From an uncultured Myxococcales bacterium (lineage in GTDB: Bacteria > Myxococcota_A > UBA9042): a DNA stretch of 64,000 bases. Location: positions 27,586 to 91,585 of the forward strand of contig CAJBNH010000033.1 in NCBI GenBank assembly GCA_903955385.1. The letters run 5' to 3'. Both the position numbers and the translations under genes were made by a program. This document shows positions 3,491 to 34,276 of this stretch, piece by piece (positions within the stretch are counted from its first letter, which is position 1; every line of letters starts with the position of its first letter). The notes below the pieces were generated by a model. It saw only the letters and a program-made list of their open reading frames with translations, was not told where the DNA came from and searched no databases.

Positions 3491-6004
3491 ATGCGCATCC
3501 TGCCGAAGCTTCTGGTCGTTCCGCTGGCCACTCTTGCGGTCTCGCTTGCCTGGCCGGCCCACGCCGCACTTCCCCCCGTCCAAGCCTACGGGCTGCGCAC
3601 GACCACCAACGGCCACGCCGCAGTTGTCGTCGACGAGGCCACGGGCCGGGTACGCGACTTCTTCCTGCACCTGTACCGCCATCGCTCGCCCACCGAGACA
3701 ACGACCGACGTGCTGTACGACGCCTACTTCGGGCTGCGGCCTTCCGGCGGGCAGGGCGTGTGGGCCAACGCGCTGCCGCATCCGGTGCCGTTTGCCAAGT
3801 GCTTGGAAGGCAAGGCTTGTGTGGCAGACGAGGCGGCATTCGGCTATGTCGGCACCACCGGCATCGTGCGCGATGTGCGGGTTCAGGACGGCGTGCTGCT
3901 GCAGACCCACGCCTTTGCCCCGCAAACGCTGGCCGGGCAGGCGATGGTGTTGGTGGCCGTCGTACGCAACACCGCAACGACACAGAAGAAGATCGATCTG
4001 GGACTGCTGCTGAACGCGCACGTGGGGCCGGGAATGCCAGAGGCCACGGAGCAGGCGGAGCAAATCCTGCAGGTCTCGCCCCACGCTCTGTACGAGAAGT
4101 CGGCGCAGAGTCCGCACGCACTGCTGTACCGGGCGCTGGACGGTGCGGGCAACCGGACGCCCTCGGGCCCAGACTCGCCGACTGGGCTGGACGTGTGGAA
4201 TCCGTGGGACAAGTTCCAAAAGAATCAGACGTTCTCGACAGATGCGGTGTCCAGCGTGGGGACTGACCGTGTGGCGGGGCTGCAGTGGTCGGACCTGACG
4301 CTGGCCCCGGGGGCCGAGCGGACCTTGGGCGTGTTGGTGCTGTACGGCGAGAACGCGACGGCGGCTACCCTGACCCTGCAGGCTGACGTGTGGCTGGCGG
4401 GACGGACGGCGCTGGACGTGCTGCAGGACGAGCTGGCCGAGTGGCAGACGTGGCAGGGCAAGGCCAAGCTGCCCCAAGCACTGACGCCGCAAGAGGAGTT
4501 CGCCGCTCGTCGGTCGCTGGCGCAGTTGCGCATGGGGCAGGTGCGTGAGCCGAACACGGGACCGCCGCACACGAACCAGACGCCGAACGGCCAGATCGTG
4601 GCCAGCCTGCCACCCGGCATGTGGAACTACACGTGGCCGCGCGACCAGGCCTACGCAGCGGTGGCGCTGGCGGCGGCGGGCCACTTGGACGAGGCACGCG
4701 CGGCGCTGGACTTCCTGCTGGCGGGCCAAACGGGCAGCTATCAGGCGGAAGTGGGCGCGCCGTATCTGATTTCTCCGACCCGCTACTTTGGCGGCGGTCT
4801 GGAGGAGTCGGACCACAATCAGGACGGCCCCAACATCGAGTTCGACGGCTTTGGCTTGGTGCTGTGGCAGGCGGCGCGGTACGTGCAGGCCTCGAACGAC
4901 CTGACGTGGCTGCAGAAGGCCTGGCCCGACCTGCGCGATGGCGCGGCGGAGTTGCTGGTGCAGTTCGCAGACGGAACCGGCCTGATCAAGCCCGACTCGA
5001 GCATCTGGGAGGTGCACTGGAACGGCAAGCAGAAGCACTTCGCCTATACCAGCCTGACGGCCGTGCGCGGGCTGTGTGGGGCGGCGGAGCTGGCAGCCGC
5101 AGTCGGGCAGGGCGACGATGCCGCGAAGTACCGCAAGGCCGCGCAGGGCATCCGCAACGCGGTTCAGACCAAGCTGGTGGGCAGCAACGGCGCGCTGCTG
5201 GGCAATCTGGAGGAGTCGCAAGGCAGCGCCGTCGACGCCGCGGCCGTGGAAGCCTTTCTGGACGGACAGTTGGACCCGGCGGGCGCGGTGGCAAACGCGA
5301 CGCTCTCTCTGTGGCAGCAGAAACTGGCGGCGGGGGGCGGTCCCGGCTTCTTCCGCAACGACGACGGCGGCGAGTACGACAGCAAGGAGTGGTTGTTCAT
5401 CGACTTGCGCTTGCTGCGCTGGATGGACCGCCGCGCCGCCTTGGGTCAGGTGCATCCGTGGGCAGCGCCTCTGCGCCAGCGGGTGCTGGACGTCGCGCTG
5501 GCTGGCGGTGGCATCTTGCCGGAATTGCTGGCAACTCAAGGGGCCACGGCCGGGCAGTTCGACGGTGCCATCCCGATGATGGGCTTCGGCGGTGGTGCAC
5601 TGCTGCTGGCTCTGGGCGGCGCCGACTGGGACGACGACCTGACCGCGTGCCTCGCCCCGCAAAACCCCGACCCGGACCCTGGACCCGACGCGGGTGACGA
5701 CGCGAAGGACCCGCCGGATGCCCCGGTGGAGACGGTGGCCGACGCCGACCCAGAGGTCGTGGAACTGCCTGACACCGCCCAGGATACCGCCGCCGAAGCT
5801 TGGACGGATGCGGACGGCGTCGGCCCGGCAGAATCGGACGGAGATGCGTCGCCCACCGCCGCAAAGGAGAAATCTTCGTCGGGCGGCTGCACCGTCTCCC
5901 AAGGCTCGCGCGTCACAGAACCGGTCAGCTTGTGGCTGCTGCTGGCCACGGGCGCGTTGCTTGCCATTCGCAGAAAGTTCGGGCCCCATCGAGGCTTGCG
6001 ATGA
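3491..6004 (+). CDS. Secreted glycoside hydrolase family 15-like protein (glucoamylase/glucodextranase fold) with a C-terminal MYXO-CTERM sorting signal
   Basis: Signal peptide MRILPKLLVVPLATLAVSLAWPAHA. The GH15-type YxWxRD motif is present (WNYTWPRDQAY) in an (alpha/alpha)6-like region. There is a C-terminal acidic linker. The tail …SSSGGCTVSQ…LWLLLATGALLAIRRKF matches MYXO-CTERM (Gly-Cys, then a hydrophobic helix, then a basic cluster). Confidence 0.8.
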   Translation: MRILPKLLVVPLATLAVSLAWPAHAALPPVQAYGLRTTTNGHAAVVVDEATGRVRDFFLHLYRHRSPTETTTDVLYDAYFGLRPSGGQGVWANALPHPVPFAKCLEGKACVADEAAFGYVGTTGIVRDVRVQDGVLLQTHAFAPQTLAGQAMVLVAVVRNTATTQKKIDLGLLLNAHVGPGMPEATEQAEQILQVSPHALYEKSAQSPHALLYRALDGAGNRTPSGPDSPTGLDVWNPWDKFQKNQTFSTDAVSSVGTDRVAGLQWSDLTLAPGAERTLGVLVLYGENATAATLTLQADVWLAGRTALDVLQDELAEWQTWQGKAKLPQALTPQEEFAARRSLAQLRMGQVREPNTGPPHTNQTPNGQIVASLPPGMWNYTWPRDQAYAAVALAAAGHLDEARAALDFLLAGQTGSYQAEVGAPYLISPTRYFGGGLEESDHNQDGPNIEFDGFGLVLWQAARYVQASNDLTWLQKAWPDLRDGAAELLVQFADGTGLIKPDSSIWEVHWNGKQKHFAYTSLTAVRGLCGAAELAAAVGQGDDAAKYRKAAQGIRNAVQTKLVGSNGALLGNLEESQGSAVDAAAVEAFLDGQLDPAGAVANATLSLWQQKLAAGGGPGFFRNDDGGEYDSKEWLFIDLRLLRWMDRRAALGQVHPWAAPLRQRVLDVALAGGGILPELLATQGATAGQFDGAIPMMGFGGGALLLALGGADWDDDLTACLAPQNPDPDPGPDAGDDAKDPPDAPVETVADADPEVVELPDTAQDTAAEAWTDADGVGPAESDGDASPTAAKEKSSSGGCTVSQGSRVTEPVSLWLLLATGALLAIRRKFGPHRGLR

Positions 6005-6930
6005 AGTGGATGATGTACTTGTTGACTTTCGCCGCAGCACTCGGACTCGTGCTGCTGCCGGCCTGCCGCGAGGCCTCGCCGCCAGTGCCTCCGCCGAAGC
6101 CCGCCCCGCCGAAGGTTCAGGAGCCGACCGCCCCTTCCGGTCCCTCGCCCGCCCAACAGGCACAGGCAAAGCTGGTGGCCGAGCTGGCGTCGGACCCCAC
6201 GGCCACCGTCAGCCAGGGCTTTGTGCTGGTGCCGCCGGGGCGCTTTCGGATGGGCACCCCCAACGGAGAAATCGAGGAGGACTGGAACGACGCACCCGTC
6301 CACGAGGTCGTCCTGACGCACGCCTTCGAGATTCAGAAGACGGAGGTGACCCAGGCGCAGTACGCCTGGCTTGCGGGGTTGCAGCCCGATCAGGACACGA
6401 AGTGCCCGGACTGTCCGGTGGCGAACGTCTCGTGGTTTCAGGCCGCCGAGTACTGCAACCAGCTGTCGCGACAGAAGAACCTGCCCATGTGTCACACGCT
6501 GTCGGCGACCGACGCCACCTTCGAGGGGCTGACCTGTCGCGGCTATCGGCTGCCGACAGAGGCAGAGTGGGAGTACGCAGCGCGCGCCGGCACCGCTGGA
6601 CCGCGGTTTGGCCCCACCGACGAGGTCGCGTGGGTCGACAGCAACTCCAGCCTGAAGGCACACCCGGTCGGCCAGAAGAGGCCGAATCCATGGGGGATCC
6701 TTGACCCGCTGGGCAACATTTGCGAGTGGACGCAGGACTGGATGGGCGACTATCCGGCCGGCCCCGTGACCGACCCCGTGGGGCCGGCGACGGGACAGAA
6801 CCGTGTGTTCCGCGGCGGCAGCTTCCAATACCCGGACGTCGAATCGAGGGCAGGGTTCCGCAACGCCTATGGTCCCGGCAACCGCGTCGACTTCATCGGT
6901 TTTCGCTGCGTGCGGACGGTAGGGCGGTAG
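6001..6930 (+). CDS. Lipoprotein with a formylglycine-generating-enzyme (FGE/SUMF1)-family domain
   Basis: Lipobox LLPAC. The SUMF1/FGE-sulfatase domain is present (…VPPGRFRMGTPNGE…HEVVLTHAFEIQKTEVTQAQY…VSWFQAAEYCN…RLPTEAEWEYAARAG…). The ATG overlaps the upstream stop as ATGA (6001-6004). Confidence 0.85.
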   Translation: MKWMMYLLTFAAALGLVLLPACREASPPVPPPKPAPPKVQEPTAPSGPSPAQQAQAKLVAELASDPTATVSQGFVLVPPGRFRMGTPNGEIEEDWNDAPVHEVVLTHAFEIQKTEVTQAQYAWLAGLQPDQDTKCPDCPVANVSWFQAAEYCNQLSRQKNLPMCHTLSATDATFEGLTCRGYRLPTEAEWEYAARAGTAGPRFGPTDEVAWVDSNSSLKAHPVGQKRPNPWGILDPLGNICEWTQDWMGDYPAGPVTDPVGPATGQNRVFRGGSFQYPDVESRAGFRNAYGPGNRVDFIGFRCVRTVGR

Positions 6931-8248: not shown

Positions 8249-10378
8249 CTACGGGCAGACCTGAAGGATCCGCAGGTCGTCGACCAGCACGCCCAGGGTG
8301 TCGTTGGACTGGTCATCGACCGCATCAAAATCCAACCGAATCCAGAGCTTGTCGCCCAAGTCGGCCGGCAGATCCAACACCAGCTCCAGCCAGTTGTCGC
8401 CGGTTGTCTTCACGCAGCTGCCGCCCTGCCCACAGTTGGTGCCTTGAGGACACTGCGCGGCCGGCAGCGACGACTTGGTCCACAGCACCTTGGCAGGCTT
8501 GCCGGTCGCCTCTGCCGAGATCGTGATCTTGTCGTAGTTCACGCACGCCTCGACCTTGGCCTGAATCTGCAGCCGAAGCTGGCGCTTGGTGCCGGGAGGC
8601 AGCGAGACCTCAGGCAGGGTGACGGTGCCCTTGTTGTTGTTGAACGAGTACTTCAGCGTGGCAGGGTCGCCGTAGTACAGGACACTGCCGGGCGTGAAAG
8701 CCCAGGGCGTCGCGTAGACCTGCCACCCCTTGCTCGGGCTGTTGCTGTTGCTGATCTTGGCGCCCGCGGGCAGTCCGCTGTCGAAACCCTCTTGCCAGAA
8801 CACCTTCTTGGGGTCGCAGCAGCTGGCGATCGCCGTGTGCGTGCACGCGCCCGTCCCCGGGGTGCACGCGTCGGTGGTGCAAGCGTTGCCGTCGTCGCAA
8901 AGCGCCGTGTTGGCGGGGAACGTGCAGTCCTTGGCCGCGTCGCAGGTATCGACGGTACAGGGATTGTTGTCGGTGCAAGTCTTGGCTGCGCCCGCGATGC
9001 ACTTGCCGTTCAGGCACTTGTCGCCCACGGTGCACACGCTGCCATCGGTGCAGTCGCCGCTGTTGGCCAGAAACACGCAACCTCCGGGTGCCTTGGGGTC
9101 GCACGCCTCGTCGGTGCAGGCGTTGCCGTCGTCGCACACCAAAGGCTTGGTGCCGGCGCACTTGCCTGCCTTGCACAAGTCCGCGTCGGTGCAGACGTTG
9201 CCGTCGTTGCACGGTGCCGCATTCTCGACGAACAGGCAGCCACCCTTCGGGTCACACTTGTTGTCGGTGCAGGGATTGCCGTCGTCGCAGCTGTTCGGCA
9301 GCGCCGTGTGCTGACAGCCAGCCTTGGGGTCGCAGGCATCGCTGGTGCACAAGTCCTGATCGTCACACGTGTCGGCCGTACCTTTGCACAAGCCGACGGC
9401 ACACAAGTCGCCCTTTGTGCATGGGTTGCTGTCGTCGCAGGCCTGCGTGTTGGGCTTCTGGCCGCAACCCTGACCCGGCACGCAGACCGTGTCGGTGCAG
9501 ATGTCGTTGTCCGAGCAGACGACGCCGACGTTGTAGCCACCGCCGTCCGCGCGGCACTCGAAATACCCGAGCGAGCTGCCGCATCCCCCCTTGGCGCAAA
9601 GGTCTTCCTGGCAGCGGTGGCTGGCGTCGCAGAACTTGCCCGGCAGGCAGTCGTCGGCCGTCTCGCAGTCGACGCACACGCCCGCCACGGTGTCGCAGAT
9701 CAGGTCGCATTCCTTGCTGGTCTTGCAGGGCTTTGCGCCGATGCAGCGGTGGTCCAGGCAGGCCTGTTGGTCACCGCAGTCGGCGGCCACCACGCAATCA
9801 GCGCACAGTCCTATCGGCTTGTCGCATACCTGGTTGTTGGCCTTGCACTCGACGTCGGACTTGCAGGTCTTCGACGCGGAGCACTTGCGTTCGAGACAGA
9901 GCAGGCCAGCGCCGCAGTCGGCCGACGTCAGGCACGGGACACACGCACGGGTCGCGAGGTCGCAAACGCCCGTCTTGCATGGGTTCTTGTCGTCGCAAGG
10001 AGCAACGGTTTGCGTGCAGCCGGGAATGGCCTCGTGGGTGCAGGCGCCCGTGGCACTGCACCCGTCGATGGTGCAGGCATCCTCGTCTGCGCACTCCGAC
10101 GCTGCGGTGCATCCCGCGGGGGTCGCATCGGGGTCGGTGACGGCGTCGGAGGAGGTCTCCGTCGCTGCGTCGGGGTCGGTCACGCCGTCGGTGGTGGCAT
10201 CGTCCGAAACCGTGGCGCCGTCTGGCAGCGACGTGTCGCTGAGCGAAACATCGCCAGTGTCTTCCGCGACATCCGCAGCGGTCATGCCGCCGAGCGGGGT
10301 CGTGACATTGGAGCAACCGGCGGTCAGGGCGACCAGCAGGACAACGGTCGCAAGGGCGCGAGGGCAGAAGGAGTGCAT
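8249..10378 (-). CDS. Large lipoprotein with Myxococcus-type cysteine-rich repeats (CxDGNxCTxDxCxxxxGC) and a C-terminal beta-sandwich-like domain
   Basis: Lipoprotein signal MHSFCPRALATVVLLVALTAGC. An Asp/Thr-rich linker follows. There are at least 10 tandem Cys-rich modules resembling TIGR02232. The last ~190 aa are cysteine-poor. The start chosen is the ATG at 10378, inside the longer ORF that begins at 10675. Confidence 0.8.
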   Translation of the reverse strand: MHSFCPRALATVVLLVALTAGCSNVTTPLGGMTAADVAEDTGDVSLSDTSLPDGATVSDDATTDGVTDPDAATETSSDAVTDPDATPAGCTAASECADEDACTIDGCSATGACTHEAIPGCTQTVAPCDDKNPCKTGVCDLATRACVPCLTSADCGAGLLCLERKCSASKTCKSDVECKANNQVCDKPIGLCADCVVAADCGDQQACLDHRCIGAKPCKTSKECDLICDTVAGVCVDCETADDCLPGKFCDASHRCQEDLCAKGGCGSSLGYFECRADGGGYNVGVVCSDNDICTDTVCVPGQGCGQKPNTQACDDSNPCTKGDLCAVGLCKGTADTCDDQDLCTSDACDPKAGCQHTALPNSCDDGNPCTDNKCDPKGGCLFVENAAPCNDGNVCTDADLCKAGKCAGTKPLVCDDGNACTDEACDPKAPGGCVFLANSGDCTDGSVCTVGDKCLNGKCIAGAAKTCTDNNPCTVDTCDAAKDCTFPANTALCDDGNACTTDACTPGTGACTHTAIASCCDPKKVFWQEGFDSGLPAGAKISNSNSPSKGWQVYATPWAFTPGSVLYYGDPATLKYSFNNNKGTVTLPEVSLPPGTKRQLRLQIQAKVEACVNYDKITISAEATGKPAKVLWTKSSLPAAQCPQGTNCGQGGSCVKTTGDNWLELVLDLPADLGDKLWIRLDFDAVDDQSNDTLGVLVDDLRILQVCP

Positions 10379-10560
10379 GCGGTGGCCTCTGCGAAAGGTG
10401 GGAGACAGCCTTGCATGATACGGGTCGTCGCAGGGGCGGACAAGGCAAGGTGCATGGACGGAATAAATCGGGTCAATTGGGTCCGGAATTTGGAATCGAC
10501 TTGACAGGCGTCGCGGCGTGGCGAGGATCCCCGCCGTAACTGAACGACGACAGCCGCGCG

Positions 10561-11478
10561 TTGCGGCTTCTCCGTGGGAGGGACCCGATGGTAGGCATTG
10601 GTACGCCTTGGCGCCGCCGTAGATTGGTTCTGATGTGGGCGGGGTTGCTGATGATGCCGGCCCTCGCGCAGGCACAGGTCTTTGAGAGCGGCGAGTCGCT
10701 GCTGATGGGCTATTCCGTCACCGGCGGGGCCATCTACGAGGCCGGGCGCGGCGAGCTCAGCGGTTGGCGCGACGGCGTCGATCCCACGCCGACCGCTTAC
10801 GGCTTCCGTTACTTCGAGCGCAACGGCTTGATCTCAGGCACGATCGGCGCCGTGGCCGTGGTTCTGGGCGGCGCGATGGCGGCATCGGGACCCAAGAGCG
10901 TCGAGACCTGGGAAGACTCGAACTACCGCTATACCAAAACAACCTACTACAGCGCTGCCGAACAGGCAGCGATCACCGGGTCTGCCGCACAGTCGGCGTC
11001 CGAGCTGATGGGCTCGCCCAACCAAAGCTTCGACCTGCAGATCTTCTCGCGCTCACTCGGTGGCACCACGGCCGGCTACAAGGCCAACCTCATGTTCGTG
11101 GGCATCCCGTTCGAGGGCGGCATGGTCGACGTCGGCATGGGGTTGGGCAAGGTCACGTCGGCGTTTCAGGACAAGGGCCAATATTTCGTCAGTCGCTACA
11201 CGTACTTCGGAATGCCCATGCGGCTCAACCTGGTGATGGGACCGGTCGTGACTTACCTGCACTTCGACTGGAACTGGCTCAGCCACGCCGAGCACAAGGC
11301 CCCGGTCATCTCGGGGGCATCCAAGAACACGAAAGAGGTCGAGTCCGACGCCTTCCCGTGGCGCCTGGGTGTGCAGGCCGCGCTGTTCGGCCGGCTCTAC
11401 GTCGACGGAGCCGCCACCACACCTTCGCTGACGTCGGGTGACTTCGGGTACTCCGGGTCGCTCGGGCTGCGCTTCTAG
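10561..11478 (+). CDS. Secreted outer-membrane beta-barrel-like protein (hypothetical)
   Basis: The signal peptide ends …MMPALAQAQ. The protein is Gly/Tyr-rich with alternating hydrophobic residues and ends in …GSLGLRF, an aromatic residue of the kind seen at OMP C-termini. An alternative start lies at 10588. Confidence 0.65.
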   Translation: MRLLRGRDPMVGIGTPWRRRRLVLMWAGLLMMPALAQAQVFESGESLLMGYSVTGGAIYEAGRGELSGWRDGVDPTPTAYGFRYFERNGLISGTIGAVAVVLGGAMAASGPKSVETWEDSNYRYTKTTYYSAAEQAAITGSAAQSASELMGSPNQSFDLQIFSRSLGGTTAGYKANLMFVGIPFEGGMVDVGMGLGKVTSAFQDKGQYFVSRYTYFGMPMRLNLVMGPVVTYLHFDWNWLSHAEHKAPVISGASKNTKEVESDAFPWRLGVQAALFGRLYVDGAATTPSLTSGDFGYSGSLGLRF

Positions 11479-11494: not shown

Positions 11495-12229
11495 ATGCAT
11501 CAGTCCACTAAGCCACACTTTGCGGGTTACTTTCTGGCGGCGCTGCTATCGCTTGCTGCCTCTACCGCGCTGGCGGAAACGGTGGCCGGGCCCTACGGGA
11601 TGACCCGCAACGGTCTGGTAGGCGGCTTCTTCGGCCAGGGCGAGCGATGGGGACAGGGCGGGTCGCAGGTGATCCTGTTTGCTGAGGGCGGTCTGTTCAC
11701 GCACGCCTCGACGCTGGGCAACTTGGGTGGACTCTCAGGCGGCATCCAGATGGGGTGGGACGGCGTACCGGCCTCAGGCGACGACACGATCGGCCTGGGC
11801 AGCTTCCAGTTCGACATGTGGGCCGGTTTTCCCGTCTCGCTGTTCCGCATCGGCGACCTGTTTCAACTGACGTTCGAGCCCGGCATGGGGATGAGCTATC
11901 AGGCCTCGTACCTGAACATGAAGCTGCGTGGCGGGTTTGCGGTTGGCGAAGTGGAGGGTGACCTGACAGGAACCTGGTGGCCCGGCGCGACCAGCTATGC
12001 GACGGGCCCCGACGGCGTCGGCAACGATGCGACCAGCTTGAAGGGCACCCTTTACATCGGCGACGATCCAGCCTTCTTTGCATGGGGCGAGTACTACTCC
12101 AGCCGACGCGAGCAGGAGTCGTTCGACACCACGAAGTCGCAGGAATACGGTGGGTTGAACGTGTTTGGCACCACGACCCGGCAAGACTTTGAGAACCTGA
12201 TCCGCATCGGCTTGGGGGTCGCCTTCTGA
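11495..12229 (+). CDS. Secreted outer-membrane beta-barrel-like protein (hypothetical)
   Basis: A strong RBS (AAGGAGGA) sits 5 nt upstream of the ATG at 11495. The signal peptide ends …AASTALAETVA. The protein ends …RIGLGVAF, an OMP-like C-terminus. Confidence 0.7.
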   Translation: MHQSTKPHFAGYFLAALLSLAASTALAETVAGPYGMTRNGLVGGFFGQGERWGQGGSQVILFAEGGLFTHASTLGNLGGLSGGIQMGWDGVPASGDDTIGLGSFQFDMWAGFPVSLFRIGDLFQLTFEPGMGMSYQASYLNMKLRGGFAVGEVEGDLTGTWWPGATSYATGPDGVGNDATSLKGTLYIGDDPAFFAWGEYYSSRREQESFDTTKSQEYGGLNVFGTTTRQDFENLIRIGLGVAF

Positions 12230-12263: not shown

Positions 12264-13277
12264 ATGCCGTACACACGCTTCGCCCTTCCGGTTCTCGCGT
12301 TGTTGGTCGGATGCCAGACCTCTCAGGTCAACGTGACACCGGTCGATCCCGACGTCACGGCCGACACGACGGAAGTGCAGACCGACACGCAGACGGAGCC
12401 GACGTGCAGTGGAACGGTGAGCGGCACCTTCCTCATCCGGCCCAGCGTGAAGGCGGGGCTGAAGAACCCTTGCACCATCAACGGTTCGCTGACGATCTCG
12501 CTGGACGCAGCGGCCGATGAGCTGGCGACGGTTCAGGGTCTGCAGGTCGTGACCGGGGATCTGGAACTCCAGAACGGCGCGACCGATCCGGGGCCGGTGC
12601 TGCCGCACCTGACGCAAGTCAACGGCTCGATCACGCTGCAGAACATCGGCGCGCCCCTGGTGTCCGGTTTCGACGCACTGCTACAGGCGGACGGCGGCGT
12701 GACGTTCATGAACTCCACGGGCATTCAGGAGATCCGCGGCTTTGCGAGCTTGACCGCTACCCAAGTGGTCGAGGTCAACAATCTGCCCAACCTCGAGTTG
12801 ATCGACGGGTTTTCCAGCCTGTCGTCGCTCGCGCACCTCAAGCTCAGCTATCTGTCCAAGCTAAAGACGGTCCTGGGCCTTGGCGCCAACGTCACGGGGC
12901 AGGTCGAGACCGTCTGGCTCAGCCAACTACAGCTGCTGCAGTCGTTTCCGACGATGGACAAGGTGACGGAAGTCGCCGCTCTGGAGACCACAGCCACGGG
13001 CTTCTTGTCGGTCAGTGCATGGCCGTCCCTGACCAAGGTGGAGACCCTGACCGTCACCGACAACGCAGCGGTGGCTTCTCTGCACTTCCCGGTGCTGACG
13101 CAGGTGGAGACCGGGCTGTTTGTCGGCAGCAACCCGTACCTGAAGAGCATGGCCGGACTGGACGCGGTCACGTCGTGCGGTCAAGTCCGGTTCTGCAACA
13201 ACCACAAGGACTTGACGGAGGCTGCCGTCCACGCTTGGATCGCTGTACACGGCGGTCAGGACATGAAGTGCAACTGA
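12264..13277 (+). CDS. Lipoprotein with leucine-rich, receptor-L-domain-like beta-helix repeats
   Basis: Lipobox LLVGC with an Asp/Thr-rich linker. Repeats of ~24 aa carry spaced L/V/I residues (…LQVVTGDLELQNG…LTQVNGSITLQNI…). Cysteines occur near both termini. Confidence 0.7.
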   Translation: MPYTRFALPVLALLVGCQTSQVNVTPVDPDVTADTTEVQTDTQTEPTCSGTVSGTFLIRPSVKAGLKNPCTINGSLTISLDAAADELATVQGLQVVTGDLELQNGATDPGPVLPHLTQVNGSITLQNIGAPLVSGFDALLQADGGVTFMNSTGIQEIRGFASLTATQVVEVNNLPNLELIDGFSSLSSLAHLKLSYLSKLKTVLGLGANVTGQVETVWLSQLQLLQSFPTMDKVTEVAALETTATGFLSVSAWPSLTKVETLTVTDNAAVASLHFPVLTQVETGLFVGSNPYLKSMAGLDAVTSCGQVRFCNNHKDLTEAAVHAWIAVHGGQDMKCN

Positions 13278-13302: not shown

Positions 13303-14859
13303 CTAGAAGCCGCAGGCCAGCGACGCCCCGGCGCACTTGCCGGCCATGCAGATGCCCTTGCAAACCATGTCGGTCTTGCACTGGTCGTCGCAGGCGGCGT
13401 TGCAGCTGATGAAGGCGAACGCCTCTGTGGCTGCCTGCTTGCTGCCCAGGTCAAAGCACTGCAGGCCGCACGCGGGCTTGCCAGCGCACAGGTTCATGCA
13501 GCCCAGCACGGTCTTGCAGTCGCCCAAGCCCTTGGGGTCCAAGCACGCGATCGTCGTGTCGGTGCACTCCGTCGTGGTTTGTCCGAAACACTGCATCGCC
13601 GACCACGCCTGACCAGCAGCCTGCGGCGTCGCATCCTTCAAGCACGCAAGCCCGCAACTGTCGTTGCCTTGGCCGCAATTCGCCGCGCACGCCAGCGTCT
13701 GGCTGCAGGTCTTGGTGCCCTGGGGGTCCAGGCACTGGATGTACTTGTCCTGGCACTCGGGTGTCAGGGAACCGCCGTCGCTGGTGCAGTTGAACAACTC
13801 CAGCGCTTGGGCCGCCGCGGCGGGCTTGGACTGGTGCAGGCAACCGAACGCGCAGCCGGGCCCCGGGTCGGTGTCCCCGGCCGCCTTCTTGCACTCGTTG
13901 GCGCAAGTGATGGCATCCCAACAGGTCTTGCTGCCGGTCGGGTCGATGCAGCCCATGAAGGCCGTGGCGCACTCGGGCGTGGTCTCGGTCTGGCCCAAGC
14001 AGGGCAGCAAGGGAGTGAACTTCTGCTGAGCGGCGGGCGAGGCTTGGGACAAGCACTTGATCAAGCAGTCGCCGTCGCTGCGCTCAGGCGCGCAGGTCTG
14101 GTTGCAGTCGAACAGCTGCCAGCACTCCAGCGAGCCTGACTGGCCCTCCAGCAGGCACGCCATCACCTCCGCACCGCACGCTGCCATCGGATCTGCGGAC
14201 GTTGACTTGGCCACGCAGTCGCTGATCGCCTGCACACGGGTCTTCGCCTTGGCCGTCAGGCCGTTGTAGCAACTCGCCATGCACTGCAGCCCGTCGGCGT
14301 TGGCCATCGAGCAGCCGTCGAAGCAGGCCGAGGCGTCCTTGCACGCCACGGGGCCGGCCGTGCCGTCGTCGAGGCACGTGTACAGCTGCGACATGCACTT
14401 GGCCTCGATGCACTGGTCCACGCACTTCGGGTCTTGGCTGCCCTTGCACAGACCCGCCTGACACGTGCCCTGGACGCACATCAGCAGGGGAGCCGCCGCG
14501 ACGATGGCCGCCGAGCTTGCATCCGCAAGACAAGCCTTTTCGCAACCCGCCACACCGGAGGCACAGGCGAGGGTGATGCACTGCACGAGGTCCGGACAAT
14601 TCGCATACGTAGCGATGACTTCGGTGATGTCAGCGGTCGCGTCCTGTTCCACCGCGTCTTCTGCGACGTCCGCAACGGCATCGTCCTGTTGAATCGTGTC
14701 GTTGGTCTGGGTCGCGTCGCCCGCGATGTCGCCCACGGCGTCGGGGTCGGCGACGATCGTGTCGTCCAGCACCAAGCCAGGGGCCTCGGTCTCCGAGCTG
14801 CACGCCGCAACGGCCAAGGCGCCAAGGACAAGGCAACAGATTGCGGTACGCGAATGCAT
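13303..14859 (-). CDS. Lipoprotein made of six tandem ~70-aa modules with eight cysteines each (disulfide-rich repeat not assignable to a named family)
   Basis: Lipoprotein signal MHSRTAICCLVLGALAVAAC followed by an Asp-rich linker. Six modules follow the pattern C-x4-5-C-x3-C-…-C-x3-C-L-…-C-…-C-…-C-(L/I)-D-P. The start is the ATG at 14859. Confidence 0.75.
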   Translation of the reverse strand: MHSRTAICCLVLGALAVAACSSETEAPGLVLDDTIVADPDAVGDIAGDATQTNDTIQQDDAVADVAEDAVEQDATADITEVIATYANCPDLVQCITLACASGVAGCEKACLADASSAAIVAAAPLLMCVQGTCQAGLCKGSQDPKCVDQCIEAKCMSQLYTCLDDGTAGPVACKDASACFDGCSMANADGLQCMASCYNGLTAKAKTRVQAISDCVAKSTSADPMAACGAEVMACLLEGQSGSLECWQLFDCNQTCAPERSDGDCLIKCLSQASPAAQQKFTPLLPCLGQTETTPECATAFMGCIDPTGSKTCWDAITCANECKKAAGDTDPGPGCAFGCLHQSKPAAAAQALELFNCTSDGGSLTPECQDKYIQCLDPQGTKTCSQTLACAANCGQGNDSCGLACLKDATPQAAGQAWSAMQCFGQTTTECTDTTIACLDPKGLGDCKTVLGCMNLCAGKPACGLQCFDLGSKQAATEAFAFISCNAACDDQCKTDMVCKGICMAGKCAGASLACGF

Positions 14860-32052: not shown

Positions 32053-32095
32053 CCCACCCACCGCTTCGCAGCTTCCCGAGACAGGAGTCCTCCCC

Positions 32096-34276
32096 ATGCG
32101 GCTCACCGGCGCTCCCTCCTTCGCCCCTCTGGCGCGCGCCCTGTTGACCCTGGCCTTGTGTTGGCCGGCCCAGGCTCAGGCGTTCTCGGTCTCTGTGCCG
32201 ACGCCGACCACCAAGACCTTCGTCAAGTGGTACACCAACAAGGTGATGTACTACCTGCACCCCTTCGGCACGCCCGACATCGGCGCGGCCGCCTCTCTGG
32301 ACGAGCTGCGGCTGGGCTGGAAGGGTTGGATGGGCATCAACTGCACCGGATTGCAGTTCATCGAGGGCTACCACTGCAACACGGCGCAAGGGAAGTGCCT
32401 GTACGACAAGTCCGGCGGCGTGGCGGTCTCGTGCAGCAAGGATGCAGACTGCCCGTCAGCCTTGAACGTCAAGGTCGTCCCGATCGGCTATAACCCCAAC
32501 AACCGCAACGAGTTGGTCTTTGTCGAGAACGCCGACTGGCAGTTTGGCAAGTACGTACTGGGCGTCACTTCGCCAGTCTTCGGCAGCAACGGTGCGATCC
32601 TCGAGGCCGACATCGCCTTCAACGGCTACAGCCAGAAGTGGACGACCAAGTCGGGAGAGGCGGGGTCCGGCACGCAGCACCTGCTCAGCGTCGCCATCCA
32701 CGAACAGGGCCACTTCTTCGGCGCCCAGCACGTGCTCGGTGGCTACAATGCCAAGGATCCTCCGACGATGGCACCCACCGTGCAGCCGTTCGGCATGTCG
32801 GCGACGCTGAACACGGATGACCAGAAGGTCGCGTGCTTTCTGAACCCGAAGTCGGGGCCTTACACCTGCGGTACCGACGCGGACTGCCCCTACATCAACG
32901 AGCAGAACCAACAGTCGGGTGAGGAGTACTACTCCGCCAAGCTCCTCTGCAATTCCGGCTCATGCGCGTGGTCCGGCGCCGGCACGCCGGTGGGCGGCAC
33001 CACTGCACTGGGCGGCGTCTGCACCGCGTCCAAGGACTGCAAGACCGGTCTGTTCTGCCAACCGTTCGGGTCCCAGGCCTACTGCTCGCAGGAGTGTACG
33101 GTCACCGCCAAGAACTGCCCGACGGGCTACACGTGCTACGCCTACCAGAACGGCGGCGGCAAGGGCGCCTGCCTGCCCGGCCAAGGCGAGCCGACGCCCA
33201 GCAAGACGCCAGGCACCGCCTGCAGTTCCAGCGCTGAGTGCACCACCCTGATGTGTCTGGACAACGTGTGCCGCGTGAAGTGCACCACCGGCAATCCCAT
33301 CGAGTGCGCCAAGGGCACCGAGCAGTGCGCGCCCATTCCGTCAGCCGGTTACGGCGGCTGCCTGCCCGTAGACCAGCCCGCCCAGAAACTGCCGCTGGGG
33401 GCCAAGTGCTTCGACGCCACCGAGTGCGACTCCGGCGCATGCCTGAAGGCTGACCTGCAGGCCAACTACGGTCTGTGTCGACAGAAGTGCTCGGGCAAGG
33501 GGACGTGCCCCAGCGGATTCTCCTGCGTTCAGCAGGTCGAGGGCTTCATGGCCTGCCTGCCCGGCAACGACAAGGTCCCGGTGGGCAGCGCGTGCACCGG
33601 CACCGGCGACTGCGACACCAACCTGTGCATCGACGCCGGCAACGCGATGTTCTGTTCGAAGAACTGCGACTTGAATCAGGTCGGCGTCTGCCCCTGCGGC
33701 ATGGCCTGCACCAGCACCAGCATCGGCCCCATCTGCTACCCCGGCACCAAACAGGCGTGCGTGTCGATCGGCCAGTCTTGTACGGCAGACAGCGAGTGTT
33801 TCTCTGGGCTTTGCGCGGGGGGCCTCTGCGTCGCCAGCTGCGACGTTGGCACCGGACAGGGCGGCTGCCTGCAGGGTGAGGCGTGCCTGCGTGTCCAGAA
33901 CGCCAACAGTCAGGGGCGCTGCGAGAAGACCGGCGCGACCAATCTGGGCGACCTGTGCGCGCAGGACTCGGACTGCAAGTCGCTGTTGTGCGCCCCAGAG
34001 TTGGCCAGCCCGCTTGAGCTGCGCTGCCAGAAACCCTGCGATCCGTCTCAGGATTCCTGCGGACCCGGCTTGGCCTGTCGCGCGCTGGGCGTGGGGTTGG
34101 GAGCGTGCGTGCTCGTCGAGGACATCCCCAACGTGCCGGACGTGCCGGTAGTCGGTTCGCTGGTCCCGTCGAATTCGAGCGGCTGCGCAGCGGGCGGGCG
34201 CACGGCACCTGCGGGACTTGCGTTGCTGTTCGCGGCTCTTGCGCTGATGACGTGGCGGCGGCGGTCGCGCGTCTAG
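32096..34276 (+). CDS. Secreted metzincin-type zinc metalloprotease with about eight C-terminal Cys-rich modules and a MYXO-CTERM signal
   Basis: The signal peptide ends …CWPAQAQA. The motif HEQGHFFGAQH fits HExxHxxGxxH. Repeated modules carry 6 cysteines in ~45 aa. The tail …SGCAAGGRTAPAGLALLFAALALMTWRRRSRV matches MYXO-CTERM. The start is the ATG at 32096 with an AGGAG RBS. Confidence 0.82.
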   Translation: MRLTGAPSFAPLARALLTLALCWPAQAQAFSVSVPTPTTKTFVKWYTNKVMYYLHPFGTPDIGAAASLDELRLGWKGWMGINCTGLQFIEGYHCNTAQGKCLYDKSGGVAVSCSKDADCPSALNVKVVPIGYNPNNRNELVFVENADWQFGKYVLGVTSPVFGSNGAILEADIAFNGYSQKWTTKSGEAGSGTQHLLSVAIHEQGHFFGAQHVLGGYNAKDPPTMAPTVQPFGMSATLNTDDQKVACFLNPKSGPYTCGTDADCPYINEQNQQSGEEYYSAKLLCNSGSCAWSGAGTPVGGTTALGGVCTASKDCKTGLFCQPFGSQAYCSQECTVTAKNCPTGYTCYAYQNGGGKGACLPGQGEPTPSKTPGTACSSSAECTTLMCLDNVCRVKCTTGNPIECAKGTEQCAPIPSAGYGGCLPVDQPAQKLPLGAKCFDATECDSGACLKADLQANYGLCRQKCSGKGTCPSGFSCVQQVEGFMACLPGNDKVPVGSACTGTGDCDTNLCIDAGNAMFCSKNCDLNQVGVCPCGMACTSTSIGPICYPGTKQACVSIGQSCTADSECFSGLCAGGLCVASCDVGTGQGGCLQGEACLRVQNANSQGRCEKTGATNLGDLCAQDSDCKSLLCAPELASPLELRCQKPCDPSQDSCGPGLACRALGVGLGACVLVEDIPNVPDVPVVGSLVPSNSSGCAAGGRTAPAGLALLFAALALMTWRRRSRV

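What the first reader, a model, noticed from the sequence alone, without database searches (positions are those of the whole stretch)
8249..10378. TraA-like Myxococcus cysteine-rich repeats on a lipoprotein scaffold
At least ten CxDGNxCTxDxCxxxxGC-type modules (the TIGR02232 pattern) follow a lipobox. The C-terminal ~190 aa form a distinct cysteine-poor domain (…KVFWQEGFDSGLPAGAK…LGVLVDDLRILQVCP). The protein has no PA14 domain and no MYXO-CTERM. This differs from TraA in anchoring. It may be a separate receptor-like family.
Basis: partly seen in the sequence, partly recalled or inferred. Interest (0 to 1): 0.5.

Follow-up and report, generated by a model that had tools for sequence, protein, structure and literature searches.

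The report
Cysteine-rich stalked lipoprotein with binding head
This gene from an uncultured myxobacterium encodes a lipid-anchored protein with a long disulfide-rich stalk and a sugar- or protein-binding head; it belongs to a very large, unstudied family, and it is not a TraA kin-recognition receptor.

Summary
The gene is real (window 8249-10378, minus strand, 709 aa; dN/dS 0.13 against a sister strain). It has a lipobox (LTAG|C22), a 67-aa acidic linker predicted to be disordered, and 76 cysteines in the mature protein.

The eleven CxDxNxCT modules are Pfam PF00526 Dicty_CTDC repeats (112-114 bits). They do not match TIGR02232 or its Pfam equivalent DUF4215, even at E<=10. TraA's repeats are in any case TIGR04201, not TIGR02232.

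A different part does resemble TraA locally. The central segment (aa 128-287) holds three CxxCx4[DE]Cx5Cx4-5C units. It matches the stalk region of the TraA model at 26.6 bits, as do all 18 orthologous segments (best E 1.4e-10). The protein is still not TraA: there is no PA14 domain, no MYXO-CTERM, no traB, and the model cutoff is 750 bits.

The C-terminal 190 aa fold confidently (pLDDT 94.7) into a MAM / cleaved-adhesin / CBM-type jelly roll, related to the choice-of-anchor J domain. It is the most conserved region (dN/dS 0.044).

Thousands of homologues exist, almost all labelled as uncultured Myxococcota, often with other lectin-like heads. Most likely this is a lipid-anchored, stalked binding protein. 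It is ordinary in kind, and no member has been characterised.

The parts
8249..10378 (-). Complete gene, 709 aa plus stop codon (8249-8251)
   Evidence: Translation. Identical 709-aa public gene call P0001. dN/dS 0.127 against sister-strain locus L085.
10415..10443 (-). Sigma-70-like promoter match (TTGTCC-17-TATCAT), 37 nt upstream of the ATG. A GAGG lies 7 nt before the ATG.
   Evidence: Consensus scan: 1 found against 0.1 expected. Upstream sequence read. This is a consensus match only.
10313..10378 (-). Lipoprotein signal peptide, aa 1-22, lipobox LTAG|C22
   Evidence: Sequence. A lipobox-like signal is found by regular expression in 76 of 109 homologues that start with M.
10112..10312 (-). 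Acidic Thr/Asp/Ala-rich linker, aa 23-89, predicted disordered
   Evidence: Composition: T13, D13, A10 of 67 residues. pLDDT is below 50 for residues 1-88. Length varies among orthologues. Highest dN/dS of any region, 0.25.
9944..10111 (-). Two N-terminal Dicty_CTDC-like modules, aa 90-145
   Evidence: PF00526 scores 29 bits on aa 96-118, above the cutoff of 27. Motif positions.
9599..9943 (-). TraA-stalk-like segment, aa 146-260. Three CxxCx4[DE]Cx5Cx4-5C units (aa 146-166, 192-212, 235-256) alternate with two CK[ST]xx[DE]C units.
   Evidence: Regular expression. NF033759 TraA model positions 307-396 at 26.6 bits; TIGR04201 at 17.7 bits, below its cutoff of 25. 18 of 18 orthologous segments hit NF033759 and 11 of 18 hit TIGR04201.
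9518..9598 (-). Connector module, aa 261-287 (CxxxxCGSxxxxFxCxxDGxGY), conserved in the subfamily
   Evidence: Alignments A2 and A3.
8822..9517 (-). Tandem array of nine Dicty_CTDC repeats, aa 288-519. Each is 24-28 aa with 4 Cys. The copies are 24-65% identical to one another.
   Evidence: PF00526 at 114 bits in 7 stretches. Module table. Pairwise identities. No tandem repeat at the DNA level with the period of the modules (72-84 nt); only three trivial runs of period 6-10 nt.
8252..8821 (-). C-terminal head, aa 520-709: a MAM / cleaved-adhesin / CBM-like beta jelly roll related to choice-of-anchor J

Best explanation
The gene encodes a lipoprotein built as anchor, tether, stalk and head.

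1. Anchor (inferred). Cys22 would be lipidated and the signal peptide removed by the standard Lgt/LspA/Lnt pathway. No +2 lysine retention signal is present, so the protein would go to the outer membrane.
2. Tether (shown as composition and low model confidence). A 67-aa acidic linker follows, predicted to be disordered.
3. Stalk (domain identity shown; rigidity and disulfide bonding inferred). About 430 residues hold 70 of the 76 mature cysteines. The order is two Dicty_CTDC modules, a segment like the TraA stalk, a connector, then nine Dicty_CTDC modules.
4. Head (fold shown; ligand inferred). At the far end sits a 190-aa jelly-roll domain of the MAM / gingipain cleaved-adhesin / carbohydrate-binding-module class. 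It would bind a conserved ligand, most likely a glycan or a surface protein.

The polarity is the reverse of TraA, which has its head at the N-terminus and its lipid anchor at the C-terminus. The gene is one small member of a very large paralogous family in bacteria labelled as uncultured Myxococcota. In that family the same lipobox-plus-stalk scaffold carries interchangeable heads.
For: - Lipobox and conserved architecture. A lipobox-like signal is found in 76 of 109 top homologues, and only 2 of 120 have a MYXO-CTERM-like tail.
- Stalk: PF00526 at 112-114 bits. There are 76 cysteines after the anchor Cys, an even number. Every cysteine of the mature protein is kept in close variants. Repeat number varies among orthologues by insertion or deletion of whole repeats, as expected of a spacer.
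- Head structure: pLDDT 94.7.
- Foldseek best hits: gingipain K1 and K3 cleaved adhesin domains (E 8e-9), CBM4 and CBM22, meprin and neuropilin MAM domains, Eph ligand-binding domains.
- Orthologous heads hit PF20773 (10 of 15), NF038128 choice-of-anchor J (11 of 15; P0025 scores 45 bits against a cutoff of 30) and PF00629 MAM (2 of 15).
- The head is under the strongest purifying selection: dN/dS 0.044, against 0.115-0.25 elsewhere in the gene.
- Other family members carry C-type lectin, fibrinogen-C, F5/8-C, FGE-sulfatase or MAM domains on the same repeats.
- 96 of 143 top representatives that contain this head also have three or more Dicty-like motifs. 90 of the 129 that start with M have a lipobox.
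Against: - No experiment exists for any bacterial member of this family.
- Surface exposure of an N-terminally anchored lipoprotein is not predictable from sequence. The protein could face the periplasm.
- The ligand is unknown.
- The target's own head is below the curated cutoffs: PF20773 at 19.3 bits against 26.9, and no NF038128 hit. The family assignment therefore rests on orthologues and on the predicted fold.
- The full-length model is poor (pLDDT 58.9), so the stalk geometry is not established.
- No neighbouring gene is conserved that could hint at a pathway.
Confidence: 0.6

Rival explanations
1. It is a TraA-like polymorphic kin-recognition receptor that mediates outer-membrane exchange, differing from TraA only in how it is anchored.
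For: There is local similarity between aa 128-287 and the TraA stalk region: NF033759 positions 307-396 at 26.6 bits, with 18 of 18 orthologous segments hitting. Both proteins share the head-stalk-lipid-anchor logic (Pathak 2012).
Against: - The NF033759 score is 20-27 bits against a cutoff of 750.
- No PA14-like variable domain.
- No MYXO-CTERM.
- No OmpA-type traB gene next to it or next to its orthologues.
- The head is the most conserved part (dN/dS 0.044; 5 of 68 substitutions), not the polymorphic part.
Confidence: 0.03
2. It is a structural component of an extracellular matrix or cell coat. The disulfide-rich repeats form a cross-linked fibre or layer, as in Dictyostelium extracellular proteins that carry PF00526 repeats. 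The jelly-roll head attaches it to exopolysaccharide.
For: The repeat type is PF00526, which Pathak et al. cite in secreted Dictyostelium proteins such as PsiA and DicA1. The head resembles carbohydrate-binding modules. Cysteine content is very high.
Against: The conserved lipobox points to a membrane-tethered protein rather than a released one. The cysteine count is even, which is compatible with all disulfides being internal. No matrix or polysaccharide biosynthesis genes are linked.
Confidence: 0.2
3. It is a periplasm-facing lipoprotein, not exposed on the surface. Its head binds peptidoglycan or a periplasmic glycan and its stalk spans the periplasm.
For: Most N-terminally anchored lipoproteins of diderm bacteria face the periplasm (general knowledge). 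Disulfide formation occurs in the periplasm.
Against: A mature chain of about 690 residues, with a long tether and stalk, is hard to fit in a periplasm. Choice-of-anchor domains are by definition found on surface-anchored proteins. Paralogues reach 1200-4600 aa.
Confidence: 0.14
4. The C-terminal domain is an enzyme, for example a GH16-type glycanase, presented on a stalk.
Against: All the top structural and sequence matches are non-catalytic binding modules: MAM, cleaved adhesin, CBM, Eph LBD and reelin. No enzyme family hits in Pfam or NCBIfam.
Confidence: 0.03

Closest known systems
TraA outer-membrane-exchange receptor of Myxococcus xanthus (NF033759; Pathak et al. 2012, PMC3325183)
   Same: Both are cell-envelope proteins of a myxobacterium with a head, a cysteine-rich stalk and a lipid anchor. 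The central segment aa 128-287 matches the TraA model's stalk region (positions 307-396) and, weakly, the TIGR04201 repeat.
   Different: - TraA has an N-terminal PA14-like polymorphic head, nine TIGR04201 repeats, a C-terminal MYXO-CTERM anchor and a co-operonic traB gene.
- This protein has an N-terminal lipobox and a stalk made mostly of Dicty_CTDC repeats.
- Its head is a C-terminal, conserved MAM-like domain, and it has no traB.
- It scores 27 bits against a cutoff of 750.
Dictyostelium extracellular PF00526-repeat proteins (PsiA, DicA1)
   Same: Both have the same Pfam repeat family (PF00526; 112-114 bits here). Both are secreted, cysteine-rich, and combine the repeats with a lectin-like domain (Pathak 2012 discussion).
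   Different: Those proteins are eukaryotic and soluble, with a PA14 domain at the N-terminus. This one is bacterial, has a lipobox and has a MAM-like domain at the C-terminus. Whether the shared repeat reflects common descent, gene transfer or convergence was not tested.
MAM / cleaved-adhesin / choice-of-anchor J jelly-roll domains (PF20773, PF00629, NF038128; gingipain K1 and K3, meprin, neuropilin, InhA)
   Different: The target's own sequence scores fall below the curated cutoffs. It sits on a Dicty_CTDC stalk of a lipoprotein rather than on a protease or a T9SS/PEP-CTERM cargo protein. The ligand is unknown.
Myxococcus cysteine-rich repeat (TIGR02232 / DUF4215, PF13948)
   Same: Both are cysteine-rich repeats containing a CDDGN-like motif and are common in Myxococcota. 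Some homologues carry both repeat types (P0036).
   Different: The target has no detectable match to either model, even at E<=10.

Membership tests
TIGR02232 / PF13948 (Myxococcus cysteine-rich repeat, DUF4215) | The repeats score on the family HMM. | tested here: not met
   No hit at E<=1 for the whole protein or at E<=10 for the repeat array alone. Positive control: P0036 scores 52.8 bits on PF13948.
PF00526 Dicty_CTDC | Score above the gathering cutoff of 27 bits, with multiple tandem 24-aa units. | tested here: met
   112 bits in 6 stretches for the whole protein. 114 bits in 7 stretches for the array, and 29 bits for the N-terminal module.
TraA (NF033759) | Whole-protein score of at least 750 bits. 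| tested here: not met
   20.4-26.6 bits, and only a local match to the stalk region.
TraA (NF033759) | N-terminal PA14-like variable domain. | tested here: not met
   No PA14 hit in Pfam at E<=1. The N-terminus is a lipobox followed by a linker predicted to be disordered.
TraA (NF033759) | TIGR04201 cysteine-rich stalk repeats. | tested here: inconclusive
   The target scores 14.7-17.7 bits against a cutoff of 25. Three units fit the CxxCx4[DE]Cx5Cx4-5C pattern. 11 of 18 orthologous segments hit at E<=0.1, best 4.4e-6.
TraA (NF033759) | C-terminal MYXO-CTERM sorting tag (TIGR03901). | tested here: not met
   No hit. The protein ends in QVCP. Another protein in the window does carry such a tail, weakly scored at 17.4 bits against a cutoff of 20.
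TraA (NF033759) | Co-operonic traB gene with an OmpA domain. | tested here: not met
   The neighbours are an alcohol dehydrogenase, an FGE-sulfatase protein, two proteins with no Pfam hit and a Receptor-L lipoprotein. Orthologues have unrelated neighbours.
TraA (NF033759) | Polymorphic recognition head. | tested here: not met
   Head dN/dS is 0.044, the lowest in the gene. Only 5 of 68 substitutions against P0121 fall in the head. This rests on a single strain pair.
Choice-of-anchor J (NF038128) | Score of at least 30 bits on the domain model. | tested here: inconclusive
   The target's head gives no hit at E<=0.1. 11 of 15 orthologous heads hit (best 2.3e-10), and P0025 scores 45.1 bits. The target's head aligns to P0025's head at E 4e-23.
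InhA-like MAM (PF20773) / MAM (PF00629) | Score above the gathering cutoff; jelly-roll fold with terminal cysteines and a DD strand. | tested here: inconclusive
Bacterial lipoprotein (signal peptidase II substrate) | A positively charged n-region, a hydrophobic h-region, and a lipobox [LVI][ASTVI][GAS]C. | tested here: met
   R7, then ALATVVLLVAL, then TAG|C22. The feature is conserved in orthologues. Actual lipidation cannot be tested here.

The most novel reading that the evidence does not exclude
The lipobox plus Dicty_CTDC stalk is a scaffold that bacteria labelled as uncultured Myxococcota, many apparently from freshwater samples, have expanded into many paralogues per genome. The paralogues carry swappable heads similar to eukaryotic ones: MAM, C-type lectin, fibrinogen-C, F5/8-C. 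Together they would form a surface recognition repertoire for prey, partners or matrix. The repeat shared with social amoebae, and the stalk segment shared with TraA, would then reflect common descent or gene transfer among organisms with social lifestyles.
Probability: 0.15. Interest if true: 0.6.

Novelty: new variant of a known kind. Interest (0 to 1): 0.33.

Why it matters
The finding corrects a misassignment: the repeats are Dicty_CTDC, not TIGR02232, and the protein is not TraA. It also locates the only part of the protein that does resemble TraA, a stalk segment of about 110 aa.

It also shows that bacteria labelled as uncultured Myxococcota carry a very large family of lipid-anchored, disulfide-rich stalk proteins with lectin-like heads, none of which has been studied. 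If these proteins are exposed on the surface, they are candidates for how these bacteria recognise prey, partners or matrix. The conserved head (aa 520-709) is a compact domain with a confident predicted model, and it could be expressed and tested for binding directly.

On its own, this single gene is an ordinary member of that family.

Tried and rejected
- A word-indexed homologue search with the head alone returned nothing, not even the protein itself. I replaced it with a local phmmer search of the full-length hits and an exhaustive profile search.
- A locus search with the head alignment A1 failed because no stretch was conserved enough. I used the full-length alignment A2 instead.
- The AFDB fold library was unavailable.
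- The full-length AF2 model is too poor to use for stalk geometry (pLDDT 58.9).
- Sequence searches of the PDB with the stalk gave no hits. With the mid-segment profile only chance-level Dumpy and Dickkopf matches appeared.
- Conserved gene neighbourhood was rejected. The orthologues P0013, P0003 and P0071 have unrelated neighbours. In sister strain L085 the two neighbouring genes with no family match are absent.
- Recent repeat amplification was rejected. There is no tandem repeat at the DNA level with the period of the modules, and the modules are only 24-65% identical.
- Diversifying selection was rejected. No region exceeds dN/dS 0.25.
- The 'CysRRep' repeats of a 2026 preprint have a different cysteine spacing (Cx6-9Cx5-7Cx8-11Cx7-8CC) and are not this repeat.
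- An alternative upstream GTG start at 10675 (808 aa) was rejected. The extension has no signal peptide, the promoter-like site lies inside it, and public gene calls use the ATG at 10378.
Full report
**Observation**

The minus-strand ORF at 8249-10378 translates to 709 aa plus a stop codon. A longer reading from a GTG at 10675 is possible but unlikely:
- Public gene calls for the identical protein (P0001, found on at least 16 contigs) use the ATG at 10378.
- A sigma-70-like promoter match (10443-10415) and a GAGG 7 nt before the ATG both lie upstream of the ATG at 10378.

The gene is under purifying selection against a sister-strain copy (L085): dN/dS is 0.127, similar to the flanking genes at 0.05-0.22.

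Features of the protein:
- The N-terminus MHSFCPRALATVVLLVALTAG|C22 is a standard lipobox.
- After Cys22 there are 76 cysteines, an even number.
- A motif scan finds eleven CxDxNxC[TK] modules: aa 96 and 128, plus nine in tandem at aa 288-519. It finds none elsewhere in the six-frame translation of the window.

The observed features are therefore real and not due to chance.

**What the repeats are**

- Pfam assigns the modules to PF00526 Dicty_CTDC: 112 bits in 6 stretches for the whole protein, 114 bits in 7 stretches for the array alone, and 29 bits for the first N-terminal module.
- NCBIfam, which contains TIGR02232, gives no hit for the array even at E<=10.
- Pfam PF13948/DUF4215, the InterPro counterpart of the 'Myxococcus cysteine-rich repeat', gives no hit either. 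In the same run the homologue P0036 scores 52.8 bits on it, as a positive control.
- TraA's repeats were defined as TIGR04201, not TIGR02232 (Pathak et al. 2012, PMC3325183).
- The nine tandem modules are 24-65% identical to one another, and there is no tandem repeat at the DNA level with the period of the modules, so the array is old.

**A segment that does resemble TraA**

- Between the N-terminal modules and the array lie three units of CxxCx4[DE]Cx5Cx4-5C (aa 146-166, 192-212, 235-256). They alternate with two CK[ST]xx[DE]C units.
- The segment aa 128-287 matches the NCBIfam TraA model NF033759 at model positions 307-396 with 26.6 bits (E 2.2e-6). Those positions lie just after the PA14 region described by Pathak et al.
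- The same segment scores 17.7 bits on TIGR04201, below the cutoff of 25.
- All 18 orthologous segments hit NF033759 (best E 1.4e-10), and 11 of 18 hit TIGR04201.
- The Dicty array is equally rich in cysteine and hits nothing in NCBIfam. Cysteine content alone does not explain the match.
- This is local stalk similarity only. The TraA model cutoff is 750 bits.

**The C-terminal domain**

- Fifteen proteins among the top hits share the last ~190 aa.
- With that alignment, AlphaFold gives a confident beta sandwich (pLDDT 94.7, pTM 0.91).
- Foldseek against the PDB returns, in order: gingipain K1 and K3 cleaved-adhesin domains (E 8e-9 and 6e-8), CBM4 and CBM22, meprin and neuropilin MAM domains, and Eph ligand-binding domains.
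- By sequence the target's head is below cutoff: PF20773 at 19.3 bits against 26.9, and no NF038128 hit.
- Among orthologous heads, 10 of 15 hit PF20773, 2 of 15 hit PF00629 MAM, and 11 of 15 hit NF038128 choice-of-anchor J. P0025 scores 45 bits against a cutoff of 30.
- Invariant positions include the N-terminal CC, the C-terminal C, GW, YGD, and a terminal hhDDh strand.
- The domain is a non-catalytic binding module of a known superfamily. It is not a known enzyme.

**Distribution**

- The whole protein has more than 4,397 homologues with E<=0.001 among the scored candidates. All of those listed carry PF00526. 30 of the 120 listed carry an extra domain, including InhA-like MAM, ALK glycine-rich, FGE-sulfatase, C-type lectin, fibrinogen-C and F5/8-C.
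- An exhaustive profile search with the head finds 4,526 representative clusters at E<=0.001 and 306 at E<=1e-30, often with several copies per protein.
- Of 143 top representatives, 96 have three or more Dicty-like motifs. Of the 129 that start with M, 90 have a lipobox.
- In species-representative genomes, 454 stretches were confirmed. The best 80 are all from MAGs, mostly labelled uncultured Myxococcales, Myxococcota or Deltaproteobacteria. Several genomes contribute multiple loci.
- The source's own name for a near-identical protein (20 differences in 709 aa) is 'MAG: Myxococcota bacterium'.
- Lipobox-like signals occur in 76 of 109 top homologues. MYXO-CTERM-like tails occur in 2 of 120.
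- The exact subfamily, with the TraA-like segment and this head, makes up about 15-21 of the top 120.

**Context**

- The neighbours are unrelated: an alcohol dehydrogenase, an FGE-sulfatase protein, a GH15 enzyme, HSP90, two proteins with no Pfam hit, and a Receptor-L lipoprotein.
- Three orthologues sit in entirely different neighbourhoods.
- There is no traB-like gene.

**Selection**

- Against the 90%-identical variant P0121, 68 substitutions are distributed as follows: signal peptide 3, linker 15, N-terminal modules 8, mid-segment 26, array 13, head 5.
- dN/dS by region is: signal peptide plus linker (aa 1-89) 0.25, N-terminal modules 0.065, mid-segment 0.15, array 0.115, head 0.044.
- Every cysteine of the mature protein is retained.
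- The head is the most constrained part. This is the opposite of a polymorphic recognition domain such as TraA's.
- This rests on one strain pair.

**Mechanism**

Shown:
- A lipobox.
- A linker that is compositionally biased and modelled at low confidence (pLDDT below 50 for residues 1-88).
- A cysteine-dense repeat region made of identified repeat types, whose repeat number varies among orthologues by whole repeats.
- A confidently modelled jelly-roll head of the MAM / adhesin / CBM class at the end farthest from the anchor.

Inferred:
- Lipidation and Lol-dependent sorting to the outer membrane. The +2 residue is Ser. That a +2 Lys retains lipoproteins in the inner membrane of M. xanthus is recalled from memory, not tested here.
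- Disulfide bonding that gives a rigid stalk.
- Surface exposure.
- Binding of a conserved glycan or protein ligand.

Rivals:
- A matrix or coat component.
- A periplasm-facing lipoprotein.
- A TraA-type kin receptor, largely refuted.
- An enzyme, which is unlikely.

**Comparison and novelty**

- The protein works like a head-stalk-anchor surface receptor, with polarity opposite to TraA.
- It is a member of the PF00526 repeat family.
- It is a probable, but below-cutoff, member of the choice-of-anchor J / MAM-like domain family.
- It fails every defining feature of TraA except a weak stalk-repeat resemblance.
- I found no paper on bacterial PF00526 proteins beyond a mention as an N-terminal module of bacterial teneurin-like proteins.
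- I rate it a new variant of a known kind. It is of modest interest as a single gene and of more interest as a representative of a very large unstudied family.

Noticed in passing
window 32093-34276 (+): A 727-aa secreted protein. It has a metzincin-type HEQGHFFGAQH zinc motif, many Cx4[DE]C-type cysteine-rich units, and a C-terminal tail (SSGC...LLFAALALMTWRRRSRV). The tail weakly matches MYXO-CTERM TIGR03901 (17.4 bits, cutoff 20). This genome therefore appears to use C-terminal sorting tags on other proteins.
   Followed up: partly
window 3491-6004 (+): A GH15-family glycoside hydrolase. Its C-terminal tail (GGC, hydrophobic stretch, RRK) weakly matches JDVT-CTERM (20.7 bits, cutoff 27). 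This is an enzyme with a possible C-terminal sorting tag.
   Followed up: partly
window 13306-14859 (-): A second cysteine-rich lipoprotein of 518 aa (lipobox AVAAC). It has no Pfam or NCBIfam match and appears to be built of helical, cysteine-paired repeats. It is conserved next to the target in the sister strain.
   Followed up: no
window 10561-11478 (+) and 11495-12229 (+): Two adjacent proteins with signal peptides and no family match. Both end in phenylalanine (GLRF, GVAF), as outer-membrane beta-barrel proteins often do. They are transcribed divergently from the target. Both genes are missing between the target and the Receptor-L lipoprotein gene in sister-strain loci L085 and L086, so they are a strain-level insertion or deletion.
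   Followed up: partly
window 12264-13277 (+): A lipoprotein (LLVGC) with Receptor L-domain repeats (PF01030, E 4e-10). This domain is best known from animal EGF and insulin receptors.
   Followed up: no
window 6001-6930 (+); L083 13443-14384: An FGE-sulfatase-domain lipoprotein lies two genes from the target. An FGE-sulfatase gene and a fibrinogen-C gene also lie near the orthologue P0003. Some Dicty_CTDC paralogues carry an FGE-sulfatase domain as their head. This may be coincidence in genomes where the domain is abundant.
   Followed up: no
protein P0090, aa 154-312 and 475-634: One homologue carries the TraA-stalk-like segment twice in the same protein, so the segment behaves as a movable module.
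   Followed up: no
loci L011, L015, L027, L043, L044, L052, L059, L062, L072: Several MAGs that carry multiple copies of this family are labelled 'uncultured Enterobacteriaceae' by their submitters. Others are labelled Chitinophagales, Planctomycetota, Terriglobia or Peribacteria. These are either mislabelled or mis-binned, or the family extends beyond Myxococcota.
   Followed up: no
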